NCBI GenBank assembly: GCA_918797485.1
Contig: CAKKNE010000001.1
Span: 5,270,001 to 5,334,000, forward strand
Direction: 5' to 3'
Length of the DNA stretch: 64,000 nt
DNA from: Pelagomonas calceolata
Lineage: Eukaryota
In this document: positions 21,239 to 59,291 of the stretch, one piece after another
Position numbering within the stretch: position 1 is the stretch's first letter
Layout of the letters: every line of letters starts with the position of its first letter
Made by a program: the position numbers and the translations under genes
Notes under the pieces: generated by a model
What the model was told of the DNA's origin: nothing
What the model saw: only the letters and a program-made list of their open reading frames with translations
Databases searched by the model: none

Positions 21239-23922
21239 ATGGACCGGAGACCATACGGCGGTATGTCGAGCTCGCGTGACGATAGGCGCAAACGGCGGCG
21301 GTCGCGCTCGTCCTCACGCTCGCGCCGGCGGCGACGGTCGCGCTCGCGGCCGAGGAGTCGCGAGCGAGCACCGCCGCGCTCGCGGCCCGAGGACGCTACA
21401 GGGGGCTGGGGTGCTCCACCGCCAAGGACAGGCGGCTGGGGTCCACCGCAGCAGGCGCAAACGGGCTGGGGCGCTCAACCACCGGAACCGGCGCAAACGG
21501 GCTGGGGCGCGCCGGCCGCGCCGTCCCAAGGAGGCTGGGCCGTGTCGGCAGCGCCGGTGCCCGTAGCACCTGCGGCGGCGCCCAAGAATGCTGAGGACGT
21601 CCTGCGCGAGTTTGTAACCAAAGGCACGTGCTGCACCGAAGCAAACCCCAGGTGCCCAATTAGTAGACGGTGTGGTCAGAGTCATCATTTTCCAGAGGCG
21701 ACGAGAGAAGAGGACTGCAACGACAAGGGCTGGAAACTTAAATCCGTCAAGGCACTCTACTCCCACTGTCGGAGCCGAGGTGTTTTGTCGGGCGAGCACT
21801 ATCACAAAGTTCTCCTGTTCGTTCACGGCGTCGATTGCTAGTGGTGCCTTCGCTTTTGAGAGTCGCGTCGCTCGCATGGCTGAGGCGTTGCTCACGCAGG
21901 CGGGCGCTTGCGGAGCGCATCGCCCTTAAAACGCCTCTCCAGGCGGGAGGCTGGGACGTGCTGCCCAACGACATGGGGACGGAGCTTACAAGAGATTTCC
22001 CGGACCTGATGGAGGCGCGCTACCAAATGTTTGGGCGCGGCGGGCCCCGCGCGGCCCCTGCAATACCGCGACGAGCTGCGATCGCGGACGCGTCGGCGCT
22101 GGCCCGGGCACAGGCCGAACGCTCGCGTCAGCGCGAGGCGACGGCAAAGGCGGAGGAGCGAACGGAGAAAATTAGCAAGCAGCTCGCTGAGTCTAAGTTG
22201 GCGCTCTTCAACTCCCAGGAGGAGACCGACGCGGCGAACGAGCGCATCGCGGGCCTCGAGGACCAGCTCCGGCGCGAGCGACAACAGAGCGCGCAGAACG
22301 AGCATCTGGAGCGCGAGGCCGAGCTCAGACGACGCAGCGACGAAGCGCGCCGCCGCGAGGCCGAGGCCCGGGCCAGCATGGCGGACGCGAACAAGAGCGC
22401 CGCCGAGCGGGAGCGCGACCGGCTGCGCGCGGACCTCGAAGAGCTGAAAGCCAAGGAAGATGCCAGGGACGCGGATTTAGCGAGGACGCGGGCCAACGCC
22501 CAGGTCTTGCTCGGCGCGGACGAGGACGACGACGTTGCCACGCTCGGCGACCGCGTCCAGGCGTTCCGGTCGGCGATCGCGACGATGCGGACGGCGCTCG
22601 GCGAGAAGGACGCCCTGAGCATCTGGGATAAGATCTACCGAAAAGTCGAGGTCGGGCGGGACACGCTCGTCGAGAACGTGATGACGATGTTCGGGCCGGC
22701 CACTGCTACTCGGGAATGGACAGCAGATCAGATGTTTATGCGACCGATCCGCGTCGAGTTTGACCGCTGTGGGGCGGTGCAGCGGTCGGGCAAGTCCAGC
22801 GAAAAAGGGAAAGAGGCGGGCGTCGACGACGGCGGCCTGCGGAACGAAATGTACGAGAAGTTCTTCGAACAGCTGCTGCTGTTGCGCCCCGACCTCTTCG
22901 AAGCCTCCGAGAGCGCGGGTGAGCTCTGCGCGCGCGCGCTGCCGACGAAGGACGCGACGTGGACCGCGCTGCCGGACGCCGCGCGTATCGAGAAGGACTT
23001 CGAGACCGTCGGGCGCATCATGTGTCGAGCGGTCGTCGACGGGCGGCCGATCCCGAACGCGCTGGCGTCGACGATCGTGCTGCGGTTCTTCCAAGGCGTC
23101 GAGCCGGCCGCGCTCGACGCGAACGGCGCCATGGTGCGGGGCCCGCTCTCGAAGGCCGCGCTCCTCGAAGAACTACTCCTCATGGACGAGGACAATGCTT
23201 CGAGCATCGGCAAGTGGATTCTGAACGCCGAACAGTCCCTTAACGATGTGTTTACCACCGTCGGCGACGCGCTGTGCTACAACTCGACGGAGGACCGAGC
23301 TGCGGCTTCAGACGCGCAGATTCTGGCGATGCCCTGGAGCGACGAGCCGGCCTTCCGCATATTAGTGTTTGAGCGCCTCGTCCAGCGCCGGTTGATCGAG
23401 CCGCGCCGCAAGGCGCTGGAGGCGATGCGGCGGGGCTTCGCGACGGTGGAAATGGTCCCGCAGCTAACACGGACGCTCTTCCCGTCGTCGAAGGAACTCG
23501 TGCACCTCATATGCGGGGACGACAAGCTAGATGCGGAGAAGCTCTGGAGCCTCTTTACCTTCGACGAGGAGGCCTACAGCCAGACGTTTATCGATTACGA
23601 TCACCCCTCGGGCGAATTTGGATTATACACGGAGGACGATCCGACGATGCGCCATCTGAAAACCGTGCTCTCCGAGTTCTGCGACGCGGAGCGCCTCAAG
23701 TTCTTCAAGTTTGTGTCGGGCCTGGCGGCGATCCCGGCGACGCGGCCGGGCGAGGCGAAGCCGTTTCAGCTGCTCGTCGACGGCAAGGTTTTGGAGACCA
23801 ACCGCCTGCCGACGACGTCGACGTGCTACTACCAGCTCCACTGTCCGCCGTACACGACCAAGGACGTGCTCAAGGACAAGCTGCGCCTGGCCATCGAAGC
23901 CGAGGGCTTCGACCAGAAATGA
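21239..23922 (+). CDS. HECT-type E3 ubiquitin ligase with N-terminal RS domain, GWG repeats, Cys/His cluster and coiled coil (exons 21239-21816, 21900-23922)
   Basis: HECT motifs EAGVDDGGLRNE, ERLKFFKFVSG and RLPTTSTCYYQLHCPPY..KLRLAI. A GT-AG intron at 21817-21899 joins the two overlapping ORFs in frame (..HKVLL-RALAER..). Confidence 0.78.
21817..21899 (+). other. Predicted intron (83 bp, GT..AG), introner-family-like
   Basis: GTTCGTTCACGGCGTCG...CTCACGCAG. Removal fuses the RS/GWG ORF with the HECT ORF. Confidence 0.65.
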
Positions 23923-24041
23923 GACGGGCGTGCGCTAAGTATGTGTTGATATACGAAGATCGGGTTTTGTGGTACCGCTCCCCGGGGCGCGGCTTCCAGG
24001 GCTCCCGCGCAGGAAATCCGCGTGTCTGAAATCCCGCGTGT

Positions 24042-24070
24042 CTAGCTTTACTTAAAGTTAAGACACTAGG
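24042..24070 (+). promoter_or_regulatory. Degenerate CTAG-element copy
   Basis: CTAGCTTTACTTAAAGTTAAGACACTAGG upstream of the 24327 gene; the right half matches consensus. Confidence 0.55.
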
Positions 24071-24218
24071 GAATCCAAAGCAGCAGCGCCTGCCCGGCGC
24101 CGTGCCCGCCCGCAGGGCTGCCCAATCCGTTGTTACGGAGCACGCTGAAGCGACCGATGCCGCGCCGGACCCAAGCCGCCGCCCAAGTGCATCCATAACA
24201 CACCCAAGCATGTTGTCC

Positions 24219-24361
24219 AGCATCGACGACGACCAGCCCGCGACCGAAGTTTGACAAGCATTGACGACGACCAGCCCGCGACCGAAGCATGACAAGCATT
24301 GACGACGACCAGCCCGCGACCGAAGCATGACAAGCATTGACGACGACCAGCGCGAGACCGA
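24219..24361 (+). repeat. 38-bp tandem repeat (~3.7 copies) spanning the start codon of the downstream gene
   Basis: Unit agcattgacgacgaccagcccgcgaccgaagcatgaca starts at 24219, 24257, 24295 and 24333. Confidence 0.95.
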
Positions 24362-26337: not shown

Positions 26338-28693
26338 TCAGCGCTTCACGGCCTTGCGCACGCGCGTGGAGCGGCGCACGCCCTCGGGCGCGGGCGCCGC
26401 CTCGATGGCGAGCACCTCCTTCTTGGCCTTCTTGGCTTTCTTCGCGGCCGGCTTCTTCGCGGCCGGCTTCTTGGCTGAGTTCGCCGCCTGCGCGGATCAG
26501 GCATCGAGACGACGCCGCGGCGATGGAGTGTCTCCTCGCAATCGAGGAGTCAAGTGAGGAGTCAACGAAAATCCCTGGGACGCCGCGACGCACGGGCTTC
26601 TTGCCCTTCTTGCCGCGCGCCGCGCGCTTCGGCGGCGGCGGCGCCTCCTCCATCTCCTCGTCGGCGGGCTCCTCCTCCTCTTCGGGCGGGGGCACCTCGG
26701 GCGTCGGCTCGGGCTCGGGCGTCGCCGGCCGCTTCGCTTTCGGCGTAGCTCTTTTCGTCTTCTTAGGCTTGGGCTTCGCCTCCTCCATCTCCTCGTCGAG
26801 GGGCGCCGGCGTCGGCCGCTCTCTAGCTTGCGCGTGGAAGGCGTCGACGGCCTCCTGCGTGAAGGACGACGGCAAGGGAACGGAGGGCGGGTTCGCCCGG
26901 CCGCCAAACCCGCGCGCCGTGTCGATCCACTGCTTTCTCGGGAGCGTCGCGTCCGTCCAGGTCTGGGGGCACCGAACATAAGATAAGGACCGCTCGTCAT
27001 AATAACCGTTGCAGAACCACTTGCCCAATTCATCTTCGACGGGCTTGGGCTTGCCCTTCCCACATAAATCACAAATGGCCGGCGCGCCGCGCGCCGCCCC
27101 ATCGATGACCTTCCGCTGCACGAAGGCCTTGTTGCCCGCTTTGGTTTGGCCGTTCATGGCAAGCACTTCCCCCAACTCGGGCACGCGCAACCTCCCGTAG
27201 GCCGCCCAGGCGACGACTTCCGCCGGCGAGCCGCCGGCTGCTTTCGCACACTGTTCTTCAATTTCATCATAATCGCCGTGCACGACGGCCGTGTTTCTGG
27301 GGCGAGGGGCACAAATAGCGTTCGTCTGGAGACTAGCGATGGAGGCCGGCGCGGGGAAGGCCAATTCTTGCGACCCGCCGGCGCCGGGCGCGTCCGGCAG
27401 AGCCGGCACGGAGGGAGCCTGGTCCATGCCCGAGGCCTCTCTCAATTCCTCCTCCGAGGCGAGTAAAGCCAGGCCGTTGCCCCTAAAACCAGACGAGAAC
27501 TCCGTGATCTGGACCGGCTGCGAGGCTGCTAAGACATCACCATTTTCGATGCCCGTCTTCAAGTCATGGATCGACATCAATGTAATCTTCGGGTTCGCGC
27601 GAGCTTTGCTGACTTTGGACATGCCCGGCTGCTTGCCCACTATTAATATGTTGGTCTTGCCGCTCACACTACCAGTAACGCGGCCGCCGAACGCTTGGAC
27701 CATAGCTTTCACACGGTCCTTGCCTAGATTTAATCCCGAACCGCCTCCCACTTCAGGAAAGATGCCCGTGGACACGCAGGTCAGGCCGGCCATGCAGCCC
27801 TCCACGCCACTAATACCAGGCTTCGGGATCACGAAGGCGCCGCCCGGGCGCTTGGGCGCGATCGGCCCGGCGCCGGGCGCGTCCGGCAGCGCCAAGGCTG
27901 TGGACGGCGCCGCCTCGACTTTCGGAGGGGGCGGCGGCGCATATTTAGCAGCAAAGGGGTCCACCGGCTTCGGCTTGCGCGTCTGCTTGCGGGCCCAGTG
28001 GGACTTGTCCATGCAGTAGGCCACGAACTCCGTCAAATCGGATTCGGACAGCTCCTCCATGCCGCACAGGAGCACGCGGTTCATGCGCCGCAACGCGTCC
28101 TCGACGCACTCCCTCCCTAAAGCAGGATCAGGTAAACCTTCCCAGATCTTCGCCGGGATGCGCCAGCAACCGAGGCGGACCCAGCGCGTATAGCTCCCGG
28201 CCTCGAGGTTGATCTGGCCGACGCGCAGCGCGCCCTTGGGGATTTTCTGCTCGCCGCAAGAGGCCTTGTGCTTCGCCGTGCACGTGCTTCTATCACTCTT
28301 GGCCGGCTCGACCCTATAAGTAGGGACATCTTCTTCCGCCGCTTCGGCGTAGTAGTCGTAGGACTGCGTGTCACCTCGAGCTTCCTTGGCCGCGAAGTAG
28401 TCCGCCGCATTCTGGAATACATCAGAGGTAGACGTCTGGTTGTTCTCCTCCGAACGGAAGGTGATGACGCGACCTCTGTCGTAAAACTCGCGGAGCACCT
28501 CGAAGGCCGACTGGACGTCTCTAAATTCTTGCGCGTCGCCGCCCTTGTCCGGGTGCGTCGCGAGTACCTTGCGGTGGTAGGCCCTTCTTATCACTTTAAA
28601 CTCCTCGGCCAGGTCGCCGCAGGACGCGAAGGCCGTCGCCGCGTCGACGGCGCAGGACTCGAGGCAGCGGGCGATGGTCTCGCCGCGGCCCAT
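26338..28693 (-). CDS. J-domain + PARP-type zinc finger + BRCT + PADR1-like protein (exons 28693-26594, 26487-26338)
   Basis: IRRAYHRKVLATHPDKGG (J domain); YRVEPAKSDRSTC..C..KIPKGALRVG (zf-PARP); FGGRVTGSVSGKTNILIVGKQPG.SKVSKA (BRCT); DGAARGA...CDLC...WFCNGYYDE...C (PADR1). Removing the intron gives a natural Lys-rich tail ending RRSTRVRKAVKR*. Confidence 0.82.
26488..26593 (-). other. Predicted intron (106 bp, GT..AG), introner-family-like
   Basis: Sense GTGCGTCGCGGCGTCCC...ACTCCATCGCCGCG...TCCGCGCAG. Splicing yields KKGKKP|AANSAKKPAAKK. Confidence 0.8.
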
Positions 28694-32865: not shown

Positions 32866-35800
32866 CTATTTGGGGGAAGGGGACGCGTCGCTAGGTGAAT
32901 TGTCACGGGCCCGCCGGAAGCGCTCGTACGCCGGCGCCACGAGATTGTCCGGCGACGGCGGCCGGAAGAGGGCGCTCGGCGACCACGCGCCGCGCGCCGG
33001 CGGCGGCGGCGGTGGGCGCCGCCCGGGCGCGAGGATGGCGCTGCGCCGCCGCCGCGTGAACTGGAGCAAGCTCATGTCCGGCGAGAACGGCGCGCCGCCC
33101 GGGCCCGCCGGCGGCGGCTCCGCCTCGTCGTCGTCGTCGTCGGGCGGCGGCGCCTCGTCCTCGTCGTCGTCGCCGGGCGGCGGGGCTTCGTCGTCGTCGT
33201 CGTCGCCCGGCGGTGGCGCCTCGCCTCCGTCGGCGTCCGCCGGCCGCGCGGGGAGGGCCGGCGCGGGCGGCGCAAAACGGGCGTCCATCGCCGCGAGCTT
33301 CGCCAGCTCCGCGTCCTCGGAATCCAGGGGCTCGGCCTCCTGCGCGTTTTCCGGAGACGCCGGCGGGAAGAGGCGCGACGCGACGTCGGGGCCCGTCGCC
33401 GACGACGCCGCGTCGTCGTCGACGACGGGGCCGGCGGGCGTCGGCGGCCCCGGCGGCGGCGGGTGCGCGGGCGGCTGCATCTTCCTCGGCGGGGGCGCCG
33501 GCGGCGGTAAATCGGCCAAGCCCTTGGACGAGACAGTACCAGAATCGGAGTGCGTGTCCGACTTGCGCCACCTCTCGAGGACCCGCAAGAACTGCGACCG
33601 CGACACGACGTCGCCGTCAGACTCGATGGTCTCGAGGAAGAACTCGATCTCGTCCCCGGAAATACCCATGATCCCCAGCATGTCCAGTAAGTCGGGCCGC
33701 TCTTGGAGAGCTTGCGCCAGCCGGTCTCGCGTCGCAAAGCCCTCCTCACAATCCCCCTGGGCCAGCTTGAACAGTAGCGTCGAAGCTAAATCTTCATTCC
33801 AGGTCTCCGTGCTCTCCTCGTCGTCCACGTCGTTGAGCATCGCGTCCCACTCGTCGTCGCCGACCTCCGACGCGACCACGGAGGGTTCGAAGGCCGACCC
33901 TTCGGGCAGCGACGCGAGTTCCGACGCCTGGGCCGTCTGCTCCATGAGCTGGTGGAAGAAGACGTCCGAGTCCATGGCCTCCGAGGACTTGAAGGACCTG
34001 CTATCGTCCTCCGTGGGCGCCTCGACGTCATCAATCGGCACGGCCTTCGCCGGGTCCACGTCTTCACACGCGAAGTCGGGGTCCGCCTCGTCGCCCTCGA
34101 AGTGGCCCGCCTCGATGCCCTCCTTCTCCTCCTGCTCGAGCTGCTTCTGGCGGTGGTGCTGGAAGCCGGCGTAGCCGACCATGACCACGAAAATCACCGC
34201 AATGAGTGATCCGATCACGGCGTCCGTGCCGGCGGCGTCGGCCGATGCACCGCCCGACGCCTTCGAGGCCTGGTAGTCCGCCAATGACGTGGGCGGCGCC
34301 GATTGTACGGAGGCTTTTGTGGGGGATGGTGTCGGGCTGCGTGTGAGCGTCGGTTTCGGTGTCGGCGTCCACGTAAACACAAGAGCCTGGCCGGGGTCCG
34401 CTGCTAGGGCCTCGTCCAATATCTGATTGGTCTCGTCGACGAGGACGCCCGACTCGAGGTCGGCGTAGCTCAGGGAAGCTAAACTAGAATCAGTGCCCGC
34501 CGCGGCGGTCTCTAGAGCAGCTGTAAAAGAACCATCACCTAAGGAGTCTTGGAGCTGACCGACTAACCGCGACGAGATGTCGTCCTCGCTGCTCGGGTGG
34601 TACGTCGCCTCCAAGACGATCGTCACGACGTAGCCCGTCGCCTGGAGCCGCCGTCGCCCGGAAACGGGCTCGAAGGTGACCTGCTCGCAGTCCGTGCCCG
34701 CCGCGAGTTCCAACGACGCGAGGACGGCCTGGCAGAGCACGTCGCCGTCGGCCTCGGTCAGGTCGCCGTAGTCCACCACGAGCTGTAAAGCAAACAGGCC
34801 CTGCGTCGTCGCCGACGACGTCGGCGTCGCGGTCGTGGGCATGGGCGTGGGCCGGGGCGTCGGCGTCGCCGAGGGCGCCGGGGTCGTGGGCGTCGCGGTG
34901 GGATACGCGGTCGTGGGCGCGCGGCTCCCGGCCAGCGAGGGCGCGGCCGTGGAGGGCTGTGGGGTCGGCTGCGCCGTGGTCGGCGAAGGCGTCGTCGGCG
35001 CCAACGAGGCGGTCGGCGCCGCCGTCGTCGGGTAGGGCGACGACGAGGGCACGGGCGTGATCGTGGGCGCGTCCGACGAGTAGCGCGAGATGGCCGGCCC
35101 GCCGCCCAGGGGGCAGTTGAGGCCGTCGTTCGACGCCGCCTCGGCCGCGTCCGAGCGGCGCACGAGCGCCGCGACGGAGGACGAGCACTGGACGTGGTCC
35201 TCCCAGTCCTTGTCGGCGTTCCAGCAGTCGTCCGGCACGACGACCGGCAGGATGAGTTCGAAGAGTCCCGCGCCGTCGTTCGACGCGAAGAAGAGCCGCG
35301 TCTCGTAGTCGTTGCGGTACATGAACGAGGCCCCGAAGCTCGTCTCCGCGCGCGCCGTCCCGGCCATGGCCGTGGGCGCCGCCGTCGCCGTCGTCGCGTC
35401 CTCGAGGCGCCTCCGTAGAGGCGGCGCGCGCTGCAGCCGTCGGCGCCGCTCCGCGTCGATGTAGTCGCACCCGCCTTCCGGCCGAAGCGGCGCGCTCGCG
35501 TCCTCCAAGGAATGGTCGCAGCCGGCGTCGCACAGGCAGCAGCCCGTGCCGCCGTTGGGCGACGTCACGATGTAGTCGGGCGCGTACCACGTGCCGCCCC
35601 CGCTCCCGCAGGTCGCCTCGTCGACGTCGCACTCGGCGCCCTCCGCCACCCCCACCTGCCCGTAGTAGCACGTGCCGGCACCCTCCGTGAACGCGGTGTG
35701 CACCGGCGCGGGCGTCGCGGGCGCCGCGCCCGCGACGGGCGCGGGCGTCGGAGTGTTGACTGGCGCCGGCCCCGCGACGGGAGCGGGCGTCGCGGGCGCC

Positions 35801-38800
35801 GCTACGGGCGCGGGCGTCGGCGCGAGGGTCGACGAGCAGTTGAGGCTGCAGTTCAAGCCGAGGACCTCGGCGGCCTGATGCTCGTAAAGGCACTCGGTAT
35901 GCCTCTGGACCAAATCCCCGCACACGGCCGGCGCGCTCGCGCAGGACTCGACGAAGAACGGCGCGCCCTGGACGTCGGCGCACGTCTCTACGACGACGCC
36001 GTCGTCATCGGTGGGATCGTCGTCGGTGCCGACGTAAAAGTCGTCGTCTAGGACCGTCCCCGAGGCCTGGGCGTCGAACATGCAGGCGAGGACGGCGCTC
36101 TCCTCCTCGCCGCAGGCGTACGAGTACGAGTACTGCGCGTCCCCGGAAGCGCAGTTGTCCGGCGGCTGCATGCCCTGGCGCGCGACGAGCTCGCAGTCGT
36201 CGCAGGCTTCGAGGCACGTGCAATCATCTTGACAGTAGCACCCGTTGTCCGCGGGATAAAAAGTCACGGCCACGAGCGCCTCGCCGTGCGCGGCCGCGCA
36301 GGACGACCAGCAGTCGTCCGCCGACGCGAACGCAAAATTCTCCACGAACTCGTTGAGTGGGGACGAGCACGCCACGCCAATATTACCGTAGTTCGTCCCG
36401 CCGGCGACGCCCTCGATGAGGCCCGGGACGGCTCTTTCCGAGCCTGGTGGTACGACGTCCGACGGCACCACCGCATAGGCCTCGGGCTCGCCCGTCGGGC
36501 CGATGCGCACGACGAAGACCTCGTAGTTGCCCCCCATCCCTATGAGGTACTGCATGCCCGCCTGGCCATCTTCCACAATCTCGTCGCCGATTTCTAAGGC
36601 TGCGGACACGTCCAGAATCTGGCCCGCAAACAAAGAATTAGAGACCTTGAACTTGTAGTCGTCGTGGAACTTGGGGGTGTCCGTATTGATGTCCTCCACG
36701 TAATAAAATCGCTCGCCGCCGTACTTGCCGATACTTTTACCGTAGAAGTAGGTGTTCGAGAGGATCGCGCCGGAATTGGGCTTCTTCTCCTCCAGCGCCG
36801 TCTCGAAGCAAATACTAGTGTTGGAATCGAAGCGGCATAAGTGTCCATCAATAGCGGCCATCATCGTGTACACCGTCGGGAAGTCGTCGTCGTAAATCTC
36901 CTGAGCCCCAATATGCATGGCCGCCGCGTTCACGTGGCTCGGGTCGTTCGGCATGTCGTACAACTTGTTGTAGAGGCCCGTCGTCGTGTCGAGCTCCTCC
37001 AGACTGTAGGACGACGCGCCCTCCTCCTTGAGGATTTGTAAAGGCCAATTATGTTCGGCACAGTCCCAGGGCTGGACACTATCGTCCTCCCAGCGCGGGT
37101 ACATGAAGGATGTGGGCATGGGCGTCGGCTGGGGCGAGGGCTTGGGCGTGGGCTCGTAGGACGGTTGGGGGGTGGGCATGCGCGAGGGCTGCGACGAGGT
37201 CGGCGGGCGCGAGTGCGTCGGCTGGGGCGTGGGCCGGCCCATGCCGTCCTTGCAATTCAGGCCGTCGTTGCTCGACGTCGAGTCCGAGGGGCCCGCCCAG
37301 ACCACCACACTGGTGCCGGCGGGGGCGCTGGCGCACGCCGAGTGTTCTGATCTATCCGTGCCCTCGTTCCAGCAGCCGTCCAGCGCATCCACATCAATGG
37401 GTAAGACGACCTCGAACAGACCTTCGCCGGCGTTCGCCGTGAAGAAGACTCGCAAATTAACGGCGTTGATCTCGTAGGCGTAGGCGGCGCCGAAGCCCTC
37501 TTGCGTTTCCGTGACACCCGTGAAGTTCGCGCCGAAGGCCGCTTGCGCGAGGGACCAGTCGACGTAGGACGGGAGGTATGCATAAGCCTCCGGGAGGTGC
37601 GAGTCGCCGTTGATCCTTACGAGCACCAGCGAAAAGTCCTTCGCCAGTCCTAACAAGTACCTTCCATCACATGCAGTGGTCACACAGACGCCGCCCGCAT
37701 CCTCCTTGACGCCGGCAAAGTCCAGGATCTTGCCCGAGATCACGTCCTCGGAGAATTCGACCAAGACATCGTCGTAGAAGGTCGGCGCGTCGTGCTGCAG
37801 GCCGTCCACGGTATAGATGGCTCGGCCCGTGGATTTTCCGTCGCCCAACGACCGCGCATAGTAATACGTCGTATCGATAATAGCGCCGACGTTCGGCTTG
37901 CCGCCTAGTTGTAATTCCGTATCAAAGCATACCTTGTCCGAGGCGTCAAACCGACAGAGCTCGCCGCCCATGGACGCGAACGCGAACTGGCCGTCCTCGC
38001 CCGCGTCATACAACGCCGCCGCATTAATGTGCCCGTCGAACCACGTCAAATCGAAGACGTCGTTGTAGGCGCCCGACGCCTGGTCGAGCTCCTTGACGCT
38101 GTAGTAATCCGAGTCGCTGTACTTGAATATTTGAATCGGATAAGGGTGGTTTTCGCAATCAAACGCTTGTACTTTATTCCGGTTCGTCTCCCAGCAGATC
38201 CGATCGAGGCACGGCGCCTCCGTCGGCGAGTTCGTCGGCGCGGGTTGGAGGAAGCCCCCTTCGTAACAGTTCAATCCATCATTCTTGTCAGAGATCGACG
38301 AAGGCCCGACGTACATCAACTGCGCCGTCTCGCCGCACCGCTCGTGCTTCGCGAGCTTGTCCGACGCCTTGTTCCAGCAGCTCTTCGGGATCTTGATCTC
38401 GGCATCCGTTTCTAATTGAAACAGCCCTCTTCCACCATTCTCGCTGAAGAGCACCAACCACCGCGGGTCGTCCTCGCGCCACCTATAGCTGTAGGCGGCG
38501 CCGAACTTGACGTCCGTAAAGGCGCCCTGGACGTCCTTCACGTTCTTCAGGTTCCGTCGACTCGTCGTCGGCGGCGGCCCTCGCAGCACGTCCAGCGCGG
38601 CGTCGCGCGCGCGGCGCCGTATGACATTGGGTGTCGTACTTGGTCGCGTCGTCGACGGCGAGAAGAGGCGCCGCGCCCAGTCGAGCACGCCGAGCTTCCG
38701 TCTCCGCGAAACCTGGTCGCAGTCGAGGTCGCAGTCGAGCCCGGCCTCGAGCGCCCAGGCCTCGTACACGCACTCCGTAAAGGCGTCGTACTTGTCGCCG

Positions 38801-42702: not shown

Positions 42703-42754
42703 CACGAGCTGCAAGCCGGCAGCCGCTGTACGGGCTGCTCCATCCAAAAATTGC

Positions 42755-42778: not shown

Positions 42779-43006
42779 ACTGAGTAGATTGGATTCAATT
42801 TCATGTCCATCGGATCGCTGGACACTCTGCCGGTCGCCCCTAGAGGCCCTGGGCTGGCAGCGGTCACGCCGCCCGGGGGGCCTCCTGCAGGTCACGACCG
42901 TCCTGGCAAAAGCGCCGCGCTCTCGGACTCTGCGTGGAGCCTGCACGCGCAAACGCACGTAGCGACAGCCCACTGTGTCACTTGCCGCAGCCCGCCAGCG
43001 GACACC

Positions 43007-43728: not shown

Positions 43729-45770
43729 TTACTCACTCTCACCCCCATCGCTCACGTAGTCGTCGTCCGGCTGCTTCCGCCCGTCGCCGTCGCCGTCCGT
43801 CAATAATAAAGGCCGCTCGACGGCGTCGCCGGTCAGCTCGTTCTCGATCTCGTGGAGGATCTCGGCGTGCGTCGTGCCCTTGGGCGTGTAGCCGTGCGCG
43901 GCACAGATCCCGAGAAGCTGGGCCGCGTCCAACGTCGCGTAGTTCGCCGGCAGCGAGTCGGCCGTGAGGCGCCGGCGCGCGGCCTTGCGCGGCGACCGAC
44001 CGTCCGTCAGGAGCCGCCTCCCGCCGGCGTCGCGCGACGCCGCGGCCCGCGCGATCAATTCGGTTCGATCCAGGCCGTCCGTGTCGCCTCCAATCATCTC
44101 CACCAGCGCCGCGTCGGGCAGCATCCAGAGCTTCGACGTCTGCGCGCCCGACGCCTCCCACACGGCGCGCGCCTGCGCCGTCGCCGCGGCGTCGTCCAAG
44201 TCCTCGCGCTGGCGCTTCTTAGCCTTCGCGTCGGCCTGAGCTTTCGCGTGCGCGTCGTGCGCGGCGGCGTCGGTGCACGCCTTCAGGTGTGTCCGCCGGT
44301 CGTCCATCGACGTTCCCACGCCGAAGAACGCGCCGCACCGCGGGCAGTCGTCCGACAGCCCGTTCAAAAAACAGCGCTCGCCGTCGAAAAGAGCACCACG
44401 CCTTTGGGCCGCGTCGGCTCGTCGCCGCTTCGCCAACCGCGACTTAGCCCTCCTTTCATGCGCAGCTCGGGCCTCGGCGACGGCGTTGGCCATGTTCCTG
44501 GCAGAAACGTGGTAGGACCGGAACCCAAATTCGTCGCCGCACTCGCCGCATTTTATTTTCCGGTGGAAATCAGCAGGAGAGTAGTCGAAGGGCGCCTCGC
44601 ACTTTCTACAGGAGTGCGTCGCCGAGACGCAGCCGAACTCACATAAACAGGTCGAGCACGTGTACTCCCGCAACCCCGTCATGAGCAGGTTGTACGCGTA
44701 AGGGGGCAGGCCCTCTTGGGCAGAAGCGCCCCAGGGCTCCTCGCAGCGCGGGCACTTTACAATCGTCCTAAGACATCCTTCGTTCGTGCGCTCGATGCCA
44801 GGCCCCTTGTCGGCTTCCTCGCTTTCTACGGGGAGGTCCGACCCCGTCACGCGATCCAGCGCCGTCACCAGGGCCTGGAACGCGCGCGTGGCGCCGTCGA
44901 AGCCCCGTAGCTTGTCGGGGTGCACGAGGCGGCACAGGCGCCTATAAGCCCCCCGCAGATCGTTCAGGGGCGACATCGCCGTCAGCCTGTGTGGAAATCA
45001 AATTTACGGCGCGTTCGTGAATCGTCGCGTCGACCTCCACGCCATCGACGCGACACCTGCTCGATGGCGTGGCGATGTTGGTTCCTCACCGATCGACATC
45101 GGTGCACCCGACGCACTGGTTGATTTCCACACAGGACCAACGTCTTGCCCGGCGCCCCCAAACTCAAAATCTCCTCCCACGCGTCCTCCGCGGCGAGCTC
45201 TAGCACGCGCGTGGCCGCTTTGATAGCGTCCTGCGACCCGTCGTCCTCGAGCGCCGGTTTTTGAGGTGCATCGGCCGCTAGTTTCTTGACGATACCTTCA
45301 AGCATTTCCTCGGGCGAGCCCATGCAGTTCACGCCGTGTCTTGCTGCCGCCTTCTTGAGAGCTGCTCCTCGGAACGAAAACGGGTCTGCTCCATCCGAAC
45401 AGCGAACATCCGCATGCCGATCCTTGAGTTTGAGGCGCCATATGAGTATACCCTTCTCGCCCGTCGCGGCGAGGCCTCGCTCTTTACTCTTGGCCTTGAG
45501 CTTGGTTACCGTGAGTGCTTCGTAGTCCTCTTCTTCACTCTTGGCCTTCTTCGCGGGAGGCTCGTCGTCCTGGAGCTCGGCGAGCTTTGCTTTATACTCG
45601 TCGTCGTCCAGGATGCCGTCGTTGCGCAGCGCCTCGAGGTCCGCCAACTCGTCGGCCCGCGTGCGCTCCTTCGCGGGTTGTAATTCCGCTAATTTTGTCT
45701 TGTACTCGTCCTCGTCGAGCACGCCGTCTGCATATAATGACTCGAGGTCCGCGAGTTCTTGGGCGCTCAT
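43729..45770 (-). CDS. SHOCT-like x2 + SAP + J-domain + Cys-rich zinc-finger protein (exons 45770-45142, 44986-43729)
   Basis: ELADLE.L..DG+LD.DEYK.KLAEL twice; YEALTVTKLKAKSKERGL..TGEKG.LI.RL (SAP); WEEILSLG...LRGAYRRLCRLVHPDK (J domain, completed only after splicing); several CxxC pairs. Confidence 0.8.
44986..45135. mobile_element. Introner element / MITE with perfect 16-bp terminal inverted repeats, forming intron 44987-45141 (-)
   Basis: CCTGTGTGGAAATCAA at 44986-45001 and TTGATTTCCACACAGG at 45120-45135. The TIR end supplies the acceptor CACAG. A GT donor at 45141 gives in-frame GKT-LTAMSP. Confidence 0.9.
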
Positions 45771-46318: not shown

Positions 46319-47490
46319 ATGGCAAAAATGCGCACCGTCCTGCTGCTGCTCGTCAGCGCGAACGCCCTCGAGCGCCCCAAGCCCAAGGCGACAATAAGAA
46401 CGACAAAAGCCGACGTCGAGGCCGTCGCCATCACAGAAGCGCTGCAGAACATCAAGCTGAAAGTCACGGGCGGCGCCACGACGGGACTCGCCCATAGATT
46501 GGAGGTCGGCGCGTTCTTCGGCGGCTGGTATGCGCTAAACATCTACTACAACATCATCAATAAAAAAGTGCTGAAGACCGTGGGACTGCCCTGGTTGGTT
46601 TCGTGGGCCCAACTCGTAATTGGAGCGTTGTACGCTATGGTAGGATGGACCATCGGCCGCCCAGAACCTTCATCGGTAAGCGCAGCGGTGAAAGACGCCT
46701 GGCCCGTCGCGGTCGCACATTGCGGCCAGCAGGTCACGACCGTCATCTCGCTGGGTGCCGGCGCGGTGTCCATGACGCACGTCGTCAAGGCCCTGGAACC
46801 GCTCTTCTCCGCTGCTGTGAATGCCGTTGTGCGAGGCGAAATCCTGCCGCTGCCGGTCTATGCCGCTTTAGTGCCAGTGGTCGGCGGCGTCGCCGTGGCC
46901 ATCGCCACCGATTTATCGTTCAATCCTTTATCATTTAGTGCGGCGATGACCTCGAACCTGTTCTCCGGTCTCAGGGCCGTGCTCTCGAAGGCTAATTTGG
47001 AACGAACGAAGCAGACGGCTCCGGAACTATTTGGAGCGGCGACGATCGGCGCCGCTTGTATATTAGCGCCGCTGGCCTTTGTGGTCGAGGGCTCGAAGCT
47101 TTCTGTGTTGGACGACCTCGATACGAACCGGGTCGCGCTGCAGGTCGCGCTGTCGGGCCTATTTCACTGTGCTTTTCGGTGTCCTGGGTCCTTCCTTCAA
47201 CGTGCGCTTATACGCCATCGACGCGGCTCGTCGCTCGCACCGCGGCGACGGCGCGGGGGTCGGACGCGACTCGTGTCCGCGCAGACCTCAACAACGAGGT
47301 CATGTACATGTGCTTGGCAAGAGTGAATCCCGTCACGCTAGCGGTCGGCAACACGGTCAAGCGCGTCGTGATCATCGCCGCGGCCATGGTCGTGCTCGGC
47401 GAGGCCATGGAGCCCGTGGCCATGGTTGGGACCACCGTCGCCATCGCGGGCGTGCTGCTCTACTCGATCCTGAAGCAGCGGCTCGCCTAG
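46319..47490 (+). CDS. Plastid triose-phosphate/phosphate translocator family (exons 46319-47168, 47285-47490)
   Basis: WYALNIYYNIINKKVL, GAVSMTHVVKALEPLFSA, spliced SGLFHYLNNEVMY and PVTLAVGNTVKRVVII; signal peptide present. Confidence 0.93.
47169..47284 (+). other. Predicted intron (116 bp, GT..AG), introner-family-like
   Basis: GTGCTTTTCGGTGTCC...ACGCCATCGACGCG...TCCGCGCAG. Splicing restores the conserved FHYLNNE. Confidence 0.9.
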
Positions 47491-47493: not shown

Positions 47494-48307
47494 CTAAATA
47501 TTTATTACGGCACTCTCTCTCACCTGAACGACGACCAACCCCGACTCCTCCCACTTGTCCTGCGACGTCAAGGGAGATTCAAAAATCCGCATCGTCGAGT
47601 CGTGGTAGAGCACTCGCACCAAGCCGGGCCCGGCGATGGGCAACTCAAAACGCTTCCCGAAGACGGTCAGGCCGCCCGCGGTGATCTCGACGGGCAGGTC
47701 GCAGGGCGCGCGCAGGGGGCCCGCCGGCAGCGCGAACGTGCCCTCGGCGCCGAAGGTCACCTGCGAGGAAGCGGTCGCGTCGATGGCGTCCGCAACGAGC
47801 GATGCGTCGCGTCGATGGCGTATTGACGCTCGAGGAAAGGACGCCGCGTTAAACGAGGCCGCCGACGACTTCCCCATAATTCTCCACGCGCTTGTCCTTC
47901 GGAAAGTACGTCTGCCCGGCGCGGTTGCGCACGCCGAAGACCTTGAGCAGCTCCTGGTTCTTCTGCCACTTGGGCACCAGTCCGCGCGAGTGCAGTGCGA
48001 GCCACAGCCCACCTCCTAAGTCCGACGCATCGAACGGACCGCCCATTAATGCGAGCGCATCGATGAGCTGCGAGCACCGGTCGGCGTCGACTCGCGCGCC
48101 GTTCCAGCCGTCGGTCACGAGCCGCTGGAGCTCGTCGGCCGCCTCGGGCCGCGCCCGCGGCGCCGACAGGGGCGGGTTCGCGAAGGCCTCGGCGAAGCTC
48201 TCCAGAAAATTGGCAGGTCGCCGCGTGGGCTGTCGTTGTTGCGTGGCTCGCGTTTGGAGAGCGCTCGCGACAACTGCGCTAGCGCAGAGCAGCTGGCAGA
48301 GCTGCAT
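47494..48307 (-). CDS. Plastid PAP/fibrillin-like protein (exons 48307-47855, 47760-47494)
   Basis: Signal peptide and transit-like leader; LGGGLWLALHS, spliced GEVVGGL|VTFGAEGTF and C-terminal VLYHDSTMRIF. Confidence 0.72.
47761..47854 (-). other. Predicted intron (94 bp, GT..AG) with two copies of the core motif
   Basis: Sense GTTTAACGCGGCGTCC...ACGCCATCGACGCG x2...CCTCGCAG. Phase-0 in-frame join. Confidence 0.85.
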
Positions 48308-52838: not shown

Positions 52839-52899
52839 AGTCAACTAATTAATTCATAACCTAAGGATAGCGCGAGCGGCACGAGGCGGGAGTTGTTGT

Positions 52900-55288
52900 T
52901 CATGGATCGCCGCAGCCGGCGCGTTTCCCGCCGAGCGCGCAGAAGAGGAAGTCCTGGTACAAGGCGACGACGTAGGCGCTCTGTTTGGCGTCGGCCGCGC
53001 CGCCGTGGCCGCCCTCGATGTTTTCATAATAATAAACGTCCGGCACGCCCAGCTCCTGGAGGCGCTTCACGAAGGACCGCGCGTGGTACGGGTGCACGCG
53101 GTCGTCCTTGGTGGAGGTCGTCATTAATAGTTTCGGGAAGGGCGCCTTTGCTTTATCGATGTTGTGGTACGCGGAGTTGTGTTTCAGGTAGCTCCAGTCG
53201 TCCGTGTCGGGGTCGCCGTACTCCGCGCGCCACGACGCGCCGGCCAGCAGGTGCGAGTAGCGCTTCATATCCAGCAAAGGCACGGCACAGACCACCGCGC
53301 CGACCAGTTCGGGTCGTTGCACATAGAAATTTCCCACCAGCAGCCCGCCGTTCGACCCGCCCCTAATACCCAAACTCTCATGCTGCGCGACGCCCGTTTT
53401 CACCAAGTCTTCGGCGACCGCTGCCAGGTCCTCGACGCAGACGTGGCGTTTCTCCTTTTTCGCGGCCTGGTGCCTGCGTCGGGCGCCGCGTCGATGGCGT
53501 CGCTCGCTCCGAAGGGTCGGACGCCGCAAATGACCACGTCGGGCCGAATTCCCCTCCGCCGCGAATGTTCGCGACCACATAAGTGGCCCCCCGCTCGAGC
53601 CAGCCCGCGCCGATCGTCGCGGCATAACCGGGCGTCTGCGAGATCTCGAAGCCACCATATGCATACAACAGACAAGGAGCATGCGCCGGCGCGCCCTTCG
53701 TCCGGATCACGAAGTAGGGGATCGTCGTGCCGTCCTTGCTCGTCGCCTTCGATTGAAAAGCCTCCATGCCGCTCGAGTCGAAGAAGGCCGGCAGGGCCTT
53801 GAGGAACTCGGCCCGCTCGAGACCGGCGGCGCCCTGCGTGGCGTCCCCCAGTTTCAGAGTGCTCGGCTCGAGGAAGGTAGACGTGCGCAGGAAGTAGTCG
53901 TTCGAGTCGTCGGCATCGACAGCCGAGCACGATATGCCGCGGATCGCGGGTGTTTTCTCGCTGCCTCTGTCTTCAAAGGTCTCCGCATCTAGAAAAATCA
54001 GGCGCGACTGGACGTTGTCCAAGACCTTGAGGATGAGCCGGTCCTTGGTCGTCGACACGGACGCTAGAGATGTTGTCGGCGTCGGCTCGAACAAGGCACG
54101 GCATTTTGCGCCTTTGAGCCCATTGTTGACGACGTCGTCATACTGCACGGCCAGGTACGAGCCCGCCGCGTACGTCCGGCCGCCGACGTCGATCGGGCTT
54201 CGCGGGTCGATCAATAACCAGCTACCGGTATGCGACACCGACGCGTCGTCGGGGAAGCCCAATTCATCCAACGCGCGCCACGTCTCATTACCATCGTAGC
54301 GCCGCAGCCACCTTTTGGAGGTATAGAACGACGTCGTGCGGTAGCGCCACTCGAACGCGTGGCCGCGGCTCCGCGACACGTAGGCGCCGACGCTGACGTC
54401 GCCATCTTCTCCTTCGAACACTATAGGTGCTTCGGCGGGATCCAAGCCGCGCTTCCACGCCCTCACGCGCCGCGGGTAGCCGCTCGACGTCATGTCGCCC
54501 TCCTGGCCGAGGTCCGCACCGAGAAAAATAGTATCTTTATCAACCCACGAGCAGCGGCTTTTGGAAGGGTCGTCGAGGCGGAACGCTTTGTCGTTGACGA
54601 AGCGCTTCGTCACTAAATCGAACTCGCGTCTTACAATAGCGTCGGAGCCGCCCGGCGAGAGCGAGATTAATGTTCGTGTCACGCTGCCTTTAATGGGTCT
54701 ATTCTGCTCGTCGTACTCGCGGCACGACGCCGAGCCCTTGTAGACCCACGACTCGCCTTCGTCCTTGCCGAGCTGGTCCACGTCCAACACCACCTCCCAG
54801 GCCGGCTCCTTCTTCCGGAATTCGTCCAACGACGCGACGCGCCGCAACAGACCGCGGGGGTTCTCGGCCGACGTCCAGAAGTTGTAGTAGTGCTCGCCGA
54901 TCTTCGAGACGCTCGGAATCTTCTCCTTCGACTCCAAGACGCTCAGGATCTTCTTGTAGGTCGGCGACGCCGTCGGGTCGCCGAGCGCGTCCTCGGTCTT
55001 TGCGTTTTCCTGCTTCGCGAAGGCGAGGGCCCGCTCGCCCTGGACTTCCTCGAGCCACGCGTGCTCGCCCTGCTTCGCCTCCCACTGGTCGATGACGTCG
55101 CAGGAGGCGACGCCGGTCGCCGTGGCTGCTACTACCACGGCCGCGGCCGCGGCGCGGCTGCTAGTGGTGGTGTGCTGCCGTCGTTGCGTGGACGTGAATG
55201 CGGGTTGCCGCGCGGCGCCGGCGCGGAGGGCGGTTGCACAATGTGTGCGCCCGAGCAGCGCCGCCGCGGCGATCCTGCGTGCTGCCAT
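52900..55288 (-). CDS. Prolyl oligopeptidase, family S9A (exons 55288-53535, 53473-52900)
   Basis: LYAYGGF, spliced NIRGGGEFGPTW-HQAA, GGSNGGLL (Ser), DDRVHP (Asp) and GGHG (His); N-terminal targeting-like leader. Confidence 0.95.
53474..53534 (-). other. Predicted intron (61 bp, GT..AG), minimal introner-family member
   Basis: Sense GTCATTTGCGGCGTCC...ACGCCATCGACGCG...CGACGCAG. Splicing restores TG|G (Trp) of the conserved WHQA. Confidence 0.92.
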
Positions 55289-55469
55289 TTAGCTGACGAG
55301 GCTTGTAATTTATGCGATTCGCTGCGGTATCAGGAGCGCGACGGTGCAAAGGGCTCCGAGCACCGCTTTGGATCTAATTCGTTATCTCTTTGTCCAAGAG
55401 CGCCGGCCAAACCCAGCGCAAAAAACGCGACTAGTGCCCTTACGCTATCGACGCGTTGCTCTATGGTCC

Positions 55470-56996: not shown

Positions 56997-57088
56997 TAAA
57001 AACGAAGCATGCGGCGTCGACGCGCGCCGTACCAGCATCAGGCGGTCGACGACTACGCCTAGAAAAAAAACGACACTCAAAGTTATAG

Positions 57089-57463
57089 CTAGCAGCCGCG
57101 CCCGAGCAGCTCGCACAGGTCCTCGCGCTGCTCGGCTTTGCTCTTCTTCTTCTCCTGCCGCTGCTTCTGTTGCTCCGCGGCCAAGCGCTGCGCCGCCGTC
57201 TGGCGCTCGCCGCCTCGAGATCCCGCGTTCTGCGCCGCGAGCTTGCGCGCGATGCGCGCCGCCTCGATCTCCTCCTGCGACGGTGGCGCCAGGTCCTCCA
57301 CGTCGGCGGCGAGCGCTGGCGCACTGACGAGGGCGAGCGCCGCGGGCAGTCGTTGCAGCAATGCGCGGCGTGGGGACGCCTCAAGCACAGCAGTGCGTGT
57401 CTGCCGCGGTGCAAGCGCGCTCGCGCAAGCGATAAGCGCTGCGGCGATGGCGGTTCTCATCAT
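57089..57463 (-). CDS. Small plastid (probably thylakoid-lumen) protein
   Basis: Signal MMRTAIAAALIACASA|LAP, twin-arginine-like RRALL...APALA, and C-terminal LCELLGRGC. Confidence 0.7.
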   Translation of the reverse strand: MMRTAIAAALIACASALAPRQTRTAVLEASPRRALLQRLPAALALVSAPALAADVEDLAPPSQEEIEAARIARKLAAQNAGSRGGERQTAAQRLAAEQQKQRQEKKKSKAEQREDLCELLGRGC

Positions 57464-58005
57464 TGTCGATGATATTTGCTGATAATTAGCTGCAGCAGCA
57501 ATGGCACACAGGCTGAGCTGGGCCGCTCGAGTCGATCGACAGCTCTGCCAAGCTCGGGTTTTGTAGGCATCCAAAAACAGCGCCGGACTGATTTACAGCC
57601 CTTGGAAGGCAGTGCTGGAGAGCTTTGACGGCGTTCTTCGACCCCTCCCTCTCTCCCCTCTAGACTTTTGCCAGACGCCGGTAGCAAAAAAGCAGCCGCT
57701 GCGCACGGCCTTCCGCCCCTTTTACCGGTGCGCCCGCAGCGTCTGGTGGCAAGTCGTCGACACTTTCTCGCCGGACGCCGCGCGCTGCGCGCCCTGGACG
57801 CGTGCGAGCGAGAAATTTGGCAAACAACGATATCGCAGTTCAGGGCCAAAGCGCGCCGCATCAGTCGCCGCGTCCGGCCCGCGCCGCTCCTACGCGGTCC
57901 CACAGCCCTCATTGCCCCACGGAAGCCCCGGCCAATCGTGCGCGCGCGCGCAGGCCCCAAAATTGTTGTACCGATCGCACCGCTCCTCTGTGACCCCCCA
58001 AAAAG

Positions 58006-59291
58006 ATGACGTCGATGCTCAGCAAGTTCACCGCCATCGGCGGCCTGTCCGGCAACGACGCGGCGCGCAACCAGAACGACATGCAGGGCCTCGCCGCGCT
58101 CTCGAGCTCGACGCCGCACCGACCGGCGCGGAAACCAACGTCGCACCCGCATCGCATCACGCTTCAATCCACGCACAGGCACCAGCTCGGCAAGACCAAG
58201 GCCATGACCTCGGCGAGCCGCTTCGGCTCGGCGCAGCGCGTGCCCGTCGCGGCGCGGAGCCCCGGCGGCAAGGAGGCCTTGAAGCCCCTCGACGAGGACT
58301 CCGAGATGCACGAGGCCGACGCGCCGCCTCCCTCGAACCGCGCGGGCCCGCACAACGCCTGCGACATGACGCTCGACGACTTCGAAGTGGGCCGCCCGCT
58401 CGGCAACGGCAAGTTCGGCCGCGTCTACCTCGCGCGCACGAAGCGCGACAAGTACATCGTCGCGCTGAAAGTCCTGCGCAAGTCGCAGCTCGAGAAGAAC
58501 GGCGTCGAGCACCAATTGAGACGCGAGATCGAGATCCAGACGCACCTCGTGCACAAGAACATCCTGCGCGCGTGCGCGGCGTCCCTTCCCTTCGACGTGC
58601 GCTGTGCGACGCGTCGCGGCGACGGAGTGAGGGAGTGTGCGACGCGTCGCGGCGACGCCGTGAGGGAGGACGCGACGACGCGGCCCACGCAGGCATGTAC
58701 GGCTACTTCTGGGACGAGAAGCGCATCTATCTGATCCTCGAGTACGCCCCCGGCGGCGAGCTCTACAAGCGCCTCACGGCGAAAGGAAGGTTCAGCGAAC
58801 AGGAGACGGCGCGCTACGTTCTCGAGATGGCTAGGGCTCTAGGCTACTGCCACCAGAAGCATGTTATTCATCGCGACATCAAGCCCGAGAACCTCCTCTT
58901 GGGATTGAACGGCGAGCTGAAGATCGCGGACTTCGGCTGGTCCGTGCACGCGCCGTCGCTGCGAAGGGAGACGTTCTGCGGCACGTTGGATTATCTGCCG
59001 CCGGAGATGGTCGAGGTGCGCGGCTACGACGAGAAGGTGGACTTGTGGTCGCTCGGCGTGCTGTGCTACGAGTTCTTGGTAGGGGAGCCGCCCTTCGACG
59101 CGCCGGGCAAGAAGGCGACGTTCAAGCGCATTTCTCGGGTCGACCTGAACTTCCCGGCCTACGTGTCCGCCGGCGCGCGCGATTTGATCACGAGATTGCT
59201 GGCCAAGGACCCGAAGACTCGTTTGAGCTTGTCGGAAGTGGAGCGGCACCCGTGGATCGTGCGCAAGACGAACCCGGACCCGGTCCCCTAG
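58006..59291 (+). CDS. Aurora kinase (exons 58006-58567, 58693-59291)
   Basis: [32 protein letters not shown], spliced [36 protein letters not shown] and D-box-like ARDLITRLL. Confidence 0.96.
58568..58692 (+). other. Predicted GC-AG intron (125 bp) with an internal 33-bp tandem duplication
   Basis: Only C|GCGCGT...CCCACGCAG|GC restores NILRMYGY. Repeat units start at 58603 and 58636. Confidence 0.88.

What the first reader, a model, noticed from the sequence alone, without database searches (positions are those of the whole stretch)
21817..58692. All seven introns share one structured sequence grammar, suggesting a second, TIR-less introner family
Seen in sequence: introns at 21817-21899, 26488-26593, 47169-47284, 47761-47854, 53474-53534 and 58568-58692 start GY, then 6-7 nt, then CGG(C/T)GTC(C). 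They end in (C/T/A)CGCAG, and most carry ACGCCATCGACGCG or a variant, which also occurs in the TIR element at 45039. The 5' box can pair with an internal or 3' GGACGC(C/G); for example Aurora GCGTCCCTTCCCT pairs with AGGGAGGACGC. They are GC-rich, with no clear polypyrimidine tract or canonical branch point. The host genes are unrelated. Inference: these are decayed or minimal introners (down to 61 bp), or introns defined by a hairpin or protein-binding motif instead of the usual 3' signals.
Basis: partly seen in the sequence, partly recalled or inferred. Interest (0 to 1): 0.8.

Follow-up and report, generated by a model that had tools for sequence, protein, structure and literature searches.

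The report
Worn transposon introns sharing fixed signals
The short introns of this marine alga are real and share a sequence box at a fixed distance from their start; they are likely worn-down copies of the alga's known intron-making transposon rather than a separate family, which would mean that far more of its introns are transposon-born than reported.

Summary
The window is Pelagomonas calceolata. RNA joints confirm 4 of the 6 listed introns, plus an unlisted one at 58116-58178. The box CGGYGTC at +9/+10 is real: 11 of 23 predicted introns not chosen by motif carry it within one mismatch (chance 2-6%). The 14-mer is not intron-specific: 4 of 9 window copies lie outside introns, and it is oriented toward coding DNA on either strand. 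Hairpin definition is unsupported. Four window intron sites are empty in a sister species and in Aureococcus-type homologs, and one varies among close relatives. A graded series links the known TIR introner (8-bp duplication, GY donor) to the box introns: 58116-58178 keeps 11/15 of the left TIR and 6/8 of the duplication; other loci join the box to an intact right half. Best reading (0.6): eroded TIR introners whose left end is retained and remodelled. A few TIR-less copies in unrelated genes are near-identical, so later copying is possible. The scan held no notes on this genome, but reported worn introners elsewhere.

The parts
21817..21899 (+). 83-nt GT-AG intron in a HECT-domain gene; box CGGCGTCG at 21826 (+10)
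   Evidence: Pfam; contig break at 21900; ORF 726 to 875 aa; no read joint among the rows shown
26488..26593 (-). 106-nt GT-AG intron in a DnaJ/zf-PARP/BRCT gene; box at 26585-26578 (+9)
   Evidence: 80 and 41 spliced reads; Pfam
44987..45141 (-). TIR introner: 148-nt element (44987-45134) with 15-bp TIRs, preceded by a 7-nt GT leader; holds the 14-mer at 45039
   Evidence: thousands of reads from other copies pile on it; splicing inferred from ORF 422 to 649 aa
47169..47284 (+). 116-nt GT-AG intron in a triose-phosphate transporter gene; box CGGTGTCC at 47177; 14-mer at 47212; site varies among close relatives
47761..47854 (-). 94-nt GT-AG intron in an unnamed gene; box at 47846-47839; two 14-mers; a shorter one-motif allele exists
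53474..53534 (-). 61-nt GT-AG intron in a prolyl oligopeptidase (S9) gene; box at 53526-53519; 14-mer at 53500-53487
   Evidence: 20 and 16 spliced reads; absent in relatives
58116..58178 (+).
   Evidence: 2 and 1 reads plus two contig sets
58568..58692 (+). 125-nt GC-AG intron 2 of Aurora kinase; box at 58577 (+10); internal tandem duplication
   Evidence: 15 and 21 spliced reads; absent in relatives
4499..4512 (-). 14-mer outside an intron, about 35 nt after a plus-strand ORF
8811..8824 (-). 14-mer outside an intron, about 34 nt after a plus-strand ORF
11275..11288 (+). 14-mer outside an intron, about 97 nt from the end of a minus-strand ORF
61364..61377 (+). 14-mer outside an intron, about 43 nt before a plus-strand ORF

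Best explanation
These are genuine spliceosome-type introns that are likely eroded descendants of the TIR introner already known in Pelagomonas calceolata, with the box at +9/+10 likely being the remodelled outer end of the element's left TIR. SHOWN: young elements in this lineage sit behind an 8-nt target duplication that supplies a GY donor, start their TIR at +9, and supply the AG with their right TIR. Short copies exist with a decayed left TIR and an intact duplication, and hybrids exist with the box in front of an intact right half. INFERRED steps: (1) insertion creates an intron; (2) deletions shrink it to about 55-125 nt and the intronic copy of the duplication drifts away; (3) the left TIR CTGTGTGG drifts to CGGCGTCC through forms such as CAGTGCAT, CGGCGCGG, CTGTGTCC and CGGTGTCC, and the right TIR to YYCCRCGCAG; (4) C-x-G-Y-G-T-C is kept by selection, probably as an aid to recognising weak, gene-derived donors, with the partner unknown; (5) the 14-mer is a host non-coding DNA motif that the element also carries, and introns gain, lose and duplicate it; (6) some TIR-less forms may have been copied between genes afterwards.
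For: Architecture: 5 of 6 complete TIR elements have 5-7 of 8 duplicated bases at a GY donor; the window's own copy has 3. Box introns place the box at the same start: GT lies 9 nt upstream in 36 and 8 nt upstream in 15 of 86 distinct sites, against 2-10 at other distances. The exon after box introns begins GY in 33 of 50 (9.4 expected from coding DNA), while only 8 of 50 upstream exons end in AG. Intermediates: four 59-80-nt elements have duplications of 6-8/8, left TIR 7-11/15 and right TIR 13-14/15. Window intron 58116 matches the TIR 11/15 at +9, a level reached by only 4 of 63,985 plus-strand window 15-mers. Two L059 introns join the box to a right half that aligns with the window's element. 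3' ends of 50 box introns match the right TIR at 3.7 of 10 unsearched positions, against 2.3 for other CGCAG sites. Recent gain: the S9, TPT and both Aurora sites are uninterrupted on 13-197 kb contigs of a sister lineage and on 12-33 kb contigs of Aureococcus-type homologs. Eight genomic read-through records lack the TPT intron and 38 have it. Two box introns of L101 are absent in DNA of L038/L063. Retention: two sites shared by diverged lineages keep a box-like sequence with dissimilar interiors (L011/L076; L063/L108).
Against: No duplication signal remains at leader positions 3-8 in 50 box introns (p 0.68; p 0.71-0.91 in five variants). 17 of 50 sites lack GY after the acceptor, including the window's variable TPT site (0/8) and the L059 hybrids (2/8). 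The box starts at +10 in 32 of 50, while an 8-bp duplication predicts +9. In aggregate the spacers are not more element-like than a shuffled element (645 vs 629+-17; 684 vs 684+-14). The 3' match could be a generic acceptor consensus. The two L059 hybrids lie in one repeat gene, are not independent, and could be recombinants. Absence in relatives is read from predicted proteins and contig lengths, not from aligned DNA, for the four window sites. The 50-intron set was fetched with the motifs, so it cannot measure their frequency. No ancient intron could be examined.
Confidence: 0.6

Rival explanations
1. The box is an older host splicing signal (an extended 5' splice site) that introns of any origin must acquire. 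The TIR element became an introner because its end happens to resemble that signal at +9.
For: The box is in nearly all non-TIR introns sampled (11 of 23 within one mismatch, 19 of 23 within two; chance 2-6% and 17-30%) and is kept across lineages. Its place matches the extended U6/5' splice-site helix, where SNU23 contacts intron nt +9/+10 and PRP38 nt +13 (PMC10943123, passages).
Against: All four window sites tested are recent, and intermediates with the element exist. Pairing of the box with the conserved U6 segment (14 of 20 non-pelagophyte U6 copies) is only -3.7 kcal/mol, matched by 26% of its letter permutations.
Confidence: 0.2
2. One reading: an independent TIR-less, duplication-less introner family that carries both splice sites and copies itself whole.
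For: Introns in unrelated genes are alike end to end: L110 (FAD oxidoreductase) and L097/L079 (trehalose phosphatase) share 34 of 41 aligned positions outside the searched motifs, and related copies sit in PspA/IM30, glycosyltransferase and ubiquitin-hydrolase genes, several with a shared leader. The window TPT intron shares 16 nt near its 3' end with L110. There is no duplication signal. Mantel r 0.09, p 0.003 between 5' and 3' parts.
Against: Only a handful of 1,225 pairs are alike, and the rank correlation is 0.02. Intermediates tie box introns to the TIR element. Gene conversion between introns could give the same pairs.
Confidence: 0.15
3. The introns are defined by a hairpin between the box and an internal or 3' complement instead of the usual 3' signals.
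For: The Aurora intron 2 fold pairs the box with GGACGC. In 20 of 50 introns the box pairs mainly with one half of the 14-mer.
Against: Mean folding z is -0.6, 4 of 50 fall below -2, GGACGC is in 0 of 50, and in 28 of 50 the box pairs elsewhere. Donor GYGCG, acceptor YYCCRCGCAG|G and YTCAC sites are ordinary. The 14-mer lies on either strand.
Confidence: 0.05

Closest known systems
P. calceolata putative introner elements (Guerin et al. 2022, PMC9481584; passages and supplementary note 3 read)
   Same: Same species; GT and GC donors, AG acceptor, conserved TIRs. The window's element at 44987 and 203-nt elements in related loci (211-nt introns) fit the reported 210-bp peak.
   Different: That study counts 956 elements (of roughly 7,500 introns, computed from 16,667 genes x 0.45) by 90% overlap with a repeat. 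The short box introns would mostly fail that cut. No box or 14-mer appears in the text read; Figure S3 is a picture and Data 3 was not reached.
Aureococcus anophagefferens introners (Huff, Zilberman and Roy 2016; not held; known here through passages of 10.1101/2020.10.14.339549, PMC9860276 and PMC7789003)
   Same: One splice site carried by the element and the other recruited from the duplication; 8-nt duplication, either orientation.
   Different: Those are described as always showing TIRs and direct repeats. The box introns have lost both and share a fixed-position remnant.
Pelagomonas and Pelagococcus MAG introner families in Gozashti et al. 2022 (PMC9860276, supplementary table 6 rows)
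   Same: Includes Pelagomonas families of 80 and 85 nt with TIR and TSD uncalled, and Pelagococcus families scored TIR 'N'.
   Different: Their sequences were not seen, so overlap with the box introns is untested. They are counted as separate families, not as a decay series.
Fungal introner-like elements that decay into regular introns (Collemare et al. 2015, PMC4457414, passages)
   Same: [quoted passage not shown]
   Different: Fungal elements have no TIR or duplication. Here a TIR element leaves a conserved, position-fixed scar.

Membership tests
Pelagophyte TIR introner (intact member) | Terminal inverted repeats at both ends | tested here: not met
   Six listed introns match the TIR at 5-8/15 (left) and 7-9/15 (right); intron 58116 at 11/15 and 9/15
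Pelagophyte TIR introner (intact member) | 8-bp target duplication supplying a GY donor | tested here: not met
   No signal at positions 3-8 in 50 introns; only the exon-side GY excess remains (33 of 50); met for 58116 (6/8)
Pelagophyte TIR introner (intact member) | Element starts at +9 and carries the AG acceptor | tested here: met
   Box starts at +9 to +11; 3' ends align in register with the right TIR
Pelagophyte TIR introner (descendant) | Sequence homology to the element outside the searched motifs | tested here: inconclusive
   Clear for L059 hybrids, L014, L017 and 58116; not significant in aggregate against a shuffled element
Introner of any kind (Gozashti et al. 2022) | Recent gain, absent from orthologs | tested here: met
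   4 of 4 window sites tested are empty in relatives; 21817, 26488 and 47761 untested; DNA-level absences
Introner of any kind (Gozashti et al. 2022) | End-to-end similarity among introns at unrelated sites | tested here: inconclusive
   Met by a few pairs, not by most
hAT-type transposon (8-bp duplication; label recalled, from no call) | A cognate transposase with matching ends | not testable with these tools
   No whole genome is held
U2-type spliceosomal intron | GY donor with +5 G, YAG acceptor, precise removal from mRNA | tested here: met
   Read joints; +5 G in 37 of 50
U2-type spliceosomal intron | Branch point used | not testable with these tools
   YTCAC clusters 18-23 nt from the acceptor in a minority; no lariat data
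Hairpin-defined non-canonical introns | Stable conserved stem in place of splice signals | tested here: not met

The most novel reading that the evidence does not exclude
Most introns on the chromosome arms of P. calceolata are born from one transposon lineage. The worn left end of that transposon has been taken over as a new, position-fixed splicing signal that props up weak gene-derived donors, and TIR-less introns carrying it now copy themselves between genes. This would be a complete path, still segregating among relatives, from DNA transposon to ordinary intron with its own splice grammar.
Probability: 0.3. Interest if true: 0.8.

Novelty: new variant of a known kind. Interest (0 to 1): 0.55.

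Why it matters
Whether ordinary introns descend from introners, and how an insertion matures into an intron, is usually untestable because the traces vanish. Here the stages coexist: intact element, shortened element, half-worn hybrid and motif-only intron, with filled and empty alleles among close relatives of an abundant, cultured alga. If the reading holds, the published introner share (956 elements) is a large underestimate, and the box gives a direct mutagenesis target. The polar 14-mer is a separate lead to a DNA-level boundary factor in pelagophyte chromatin.

Tried and rejected
No whole genome was available, so genome-wide frequencies could not be measured. A viral-contig scan gave 4 hits that read as chance matches in coding DNA. 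A pelagophyte U6 was sought: none in viral contigs, and 20 hits in genome contigs, none with pelagophyte GC or motif content. Pairing of the box with the common U6 segment was no better than chance, so U6 is kept only as a lead. Target duplication was tested on both sides, ungapped, gapped and by subsets, and all tests were negative. Hairpin definition was rejected. I first read the box as the element's subterminal CGGCG exposed by loss of the TIR (alignment). I prefer the TIR-end reading because 58116 matches the TIR itself and several introns keep the subterminal GGCGCCTTC behind the box; both routes may occur. My gene model is noisy (37 window calls, most of them false), so only filtered calls were used. 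Of 33 unselected calls, 5 window, 3 TIR-type and 2 overlapping calls were dropped, leaving 23, of which several are probably false. Of 120 metagenome loci, 50 failed the frame filter and 70 collapsed to 50 sites. L029 and L076 looked like an unrelated pair but are homologous genes with similar introns at different positions. Rfam found nothing in the window. Literature: no paper holds the 14-mer; the searches listed no paper whose title or abstract start points to the box. Huff et al. 2016 is not held, and bioRxiv supplements are closed.
Full report
Organism and data. The window is 63.5% GC. Its triose-phosphate transporter exon is 100% identical to Pelagomonas calceolata CAH0366482.1, and its Aurora kinase falls in the cluster with P. 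calceolata UniRef100_A0A6S8TB55. No whole genome was held. Breadth therefore came from RNA reads, one metagenome pattern scan (120 loci) and protein clusters whose read-through products reveal introns.

The introns are real. Reads skip 53474-53534 (20 and 16 reads), 58568-58692 (15 and 21), 47169-47284 (2 and 0, plus two contig sets) and an unlisted 63-nt GC-AG intron at 58116-58178 (2 and 1, plus two contig sets), and 26488-26593 (80 and 41). 21817-21899 rests on a contig break at 21900 and ORF extension. 47761-47854 rests on a box-blind gene model and continuous homologs. The TIR element is a 155-nt minus-strand intron at 44987-45141 by ORF joining, and it lacks the box.

The box is tied to the donor. 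The scan pattern did not include the donor, yet GT lay 9 nt upstream of the box in 36 and 8 nt upstream in 15 of 86 distinct sites, against 2-10 at other distances. Of 59 loci with confident coding frames on both sides, 40 had a single GY at 8-10 nt, and all 40 were frame-consistent (not deduplicated). After filtering (70 of 120 loci kept, 50 distinct sites), donors were 38 GT and 12 GC, with consensus GYGCG, and acceptors read YYCCRCGCAG|G. This set was chosen by motif, so I also took predicted introns from the flanks. Of 23, 11 carry the box within one mismatch and 19 within two, against 2-6% and 17-30% for random GY sites treated the same way. Introns defined by homology gaps show box-like sequences too.

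The 14-mer is a different thing. It has nine exact copies in the window (0.00 expected): four in three introns, one in the TIR element and four outside. The outside copies have little element-like flank. Its density is 0.08 per kb in coding DNA, 0.41 in other non-coding DNA and 1.0 in predicted introns. It is polar. In non-coding gaps over 150 nt, 15 of 16 copies point their CGCG end at the nearer coding DNA whatever the gene's strand (p 0.0005; 24 of 35 over all gaps, p 0.04), and 6 of 6 introns with both orientations have the reverse copy first (labels come from a noisy gene model). That fits a DNA-level element, not an RNA splice signal (inference).

Structure does not define them. Window z-scores run from -1.6 to +1.4. 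Among 50 related introns the mean is -0.6, 4 fall below -2, and none has GGACGC after the box.

They are recent. Read-through products from ENA and JGI records (P0129, P0133, P0136, P0160, P0290, P0339) show that those gene calls ignore introns. An uninterrupted protein on a long contig therefore implies an empty site (inference). S9 is uninterrupted at 87% identity on contigs of 197, 37 and 14 kb, and at 67% on contigs of 12-21 kb. Both Aurora sites are empty in a sister protein on a 63-kb contig and in an Aureococcus-cluster protein on a 26-kb contig. TPT is uninterrupted on the 197- and 37-kb contigs and on 21-33-kb Aureococcus-cluster contigs. Among records covering the TPT junction, 38 read into the intron and 8 lack it but read into a TIR element about 20 codons downstream, so they are genomic; 57 are continuous and mostly cannot be told from transcripts. 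Alleles share the 5' part and differ widely inside, often by extra motif copies in either orientation. At DNA level, two box introns of L101 are absent from L038/L063 (87% identical), and two of L011/L076 are absent from L029.

Link to the TIR introner. Five of the six complete elements found have 5-7 of 8 bases duplicated at a GY donor, with the TIR at +9 (+10 in one); the window's copy has 3. Four short elements (59-80 nt) keep duplications of 6-8/8 and right TIRs of 13-14/15, while their left TIRs have fallen to 7-11/15. Window intron 58116 has CGGCGCGGAAACCAA at +9, 11/15 to the TIR, and a 6/8 duplication. Two L059 introns put CGGCGTCT in front of a right half that aligns with the window's element through the 14-mer to the TIR. 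The box shares four of eight positions with the TIR end, and variants bridge them. The 3' ends of box introns match the right TIR at 3.7 of 10 unsearched positions, against 2.3 elsewhere, and beat shuffles in an anchored alignment (313 vs 215+-18, 28 introns). The next exon starts GY in 33 of 50 (9.4 expected), while only 8 of 50 upstream exons end in AG. That asymmetry is what donor recruitment from a duplication would leave.

Results against. No duplication signal survives at positions 3-8. 17 of 50 sites lack GY, among them the variable TPT site. The box starts at +10 in 32 of 50. Aggregate spacers are not more element-like than a shuffled element. The hybrids lie in one repeat gene. A few introns in unrelated genes are alike end to end without TIRs, for example L110 and L097 at 34 of 41 positions outside the searched bases. 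Why the box is retained is not shown. It lies where the extended U6 helix forms (PMC10943123, passages), but pairing to the common U6 segment is no better than chance, and no pelagophyte U6 was found.

Comparison with what is known. TIR introners are reported for this species (956 elements; PMC9481584, passages and supplementary note 3). Donor recruitment from an 8-nt duplication is reported for Aureococcus-like classes (10.1101/2020.10.14.339549, passages). TIR-less families and short Pelagomonas families with uncalled TIRs are tabulated (PMC9860276, section 7 and table rows). Decay into regular introns is reported in fungi (PMC4457414, passages). About 14% GC-AG introns in P. calceolata have been put down to GC content (10.1101/2024.10.30.620910, passages); recruitment of GC donors from target sites is an alternative (inference). 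I found no account of the box, the 14-mer or the decay series in the passages and listings seen. Figure S3 and Data 3 of PMC9481584, Huff et al. 2016 and the Gozashti sequences were not seen and could bear on this.

Verdict. The introns and the positional box are real. They are best read as worn descendants of a known TIR introner (0.6), not as intact members of it, with a retained left-end remnant of unknown partner. Novelty: new variant of a known kind. Interest 0.55.

Noticed in passing
window 58116-58178 (+): Unlisted in-frame 63-nt GC-AG intron in Aurora kinase; the best intermediate between the TIR element and the box introns.
   Followed up: yes
window 4499, 8811, 11275, 61364 and variants at 3100, 6246, 59353; flanks of related loci: The 14-mer ACGCCRTCGMCGC points its CGCG end at the nearer coding DNA regardless of gene strand (15 of 16 in large gaps); candidate site of a chromatin boundary or nucleosome-positioning factor.
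   Followed up: partly
L059, L021, L024, L087, L106: A long repeat gene with EF-hand-like repeats (read by eye) carries many introns at repeat-equivalent sites, graded from TIR element to box intron, with empty repeats beside filled ones.
   Followed up: partly
L039, L029:620-683, L030, L059: Short elements with asymmetric ends (CAG at the left, CAG at the right) and near-perfect 8-bp duplications. A CAG start is typical of hAT ends (recalled); one end change would create the acceptor.
   Followed up: partly
window 52860-55290 (-): Prolyl oligopeptidase whose hit list beyond algae is largely bacterial, now carrying a recently gained intron.
   Followed up: no
TPT homologs P0343, P0345, P0352, P0457, P0355: Different TIR-element insertions about 20 codons downstream of the 47169 site in other lineages; one record has both the box intron and an element.
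   Followed up: partly
window 32866-42891 (-): A 3,341-aa open frame with Ser/Thr/Pro-rich repeats.
   Followed up: no
window 24214-24361: Tandem 38-nt repeat, about three to four copies.
   Followed up: no
window 61164-61195 and 62642-62673: 32-nt inverted pair built on CTAGC/ACACTAG words that recur in promoter-like intergenic DNA.
   Followed up: no
L125-L144: Eukaryotic U6 snRNA-like genes inside 20 stretches of bacterial genome assemblies, probably contaminating contigs.
   Followed up: no
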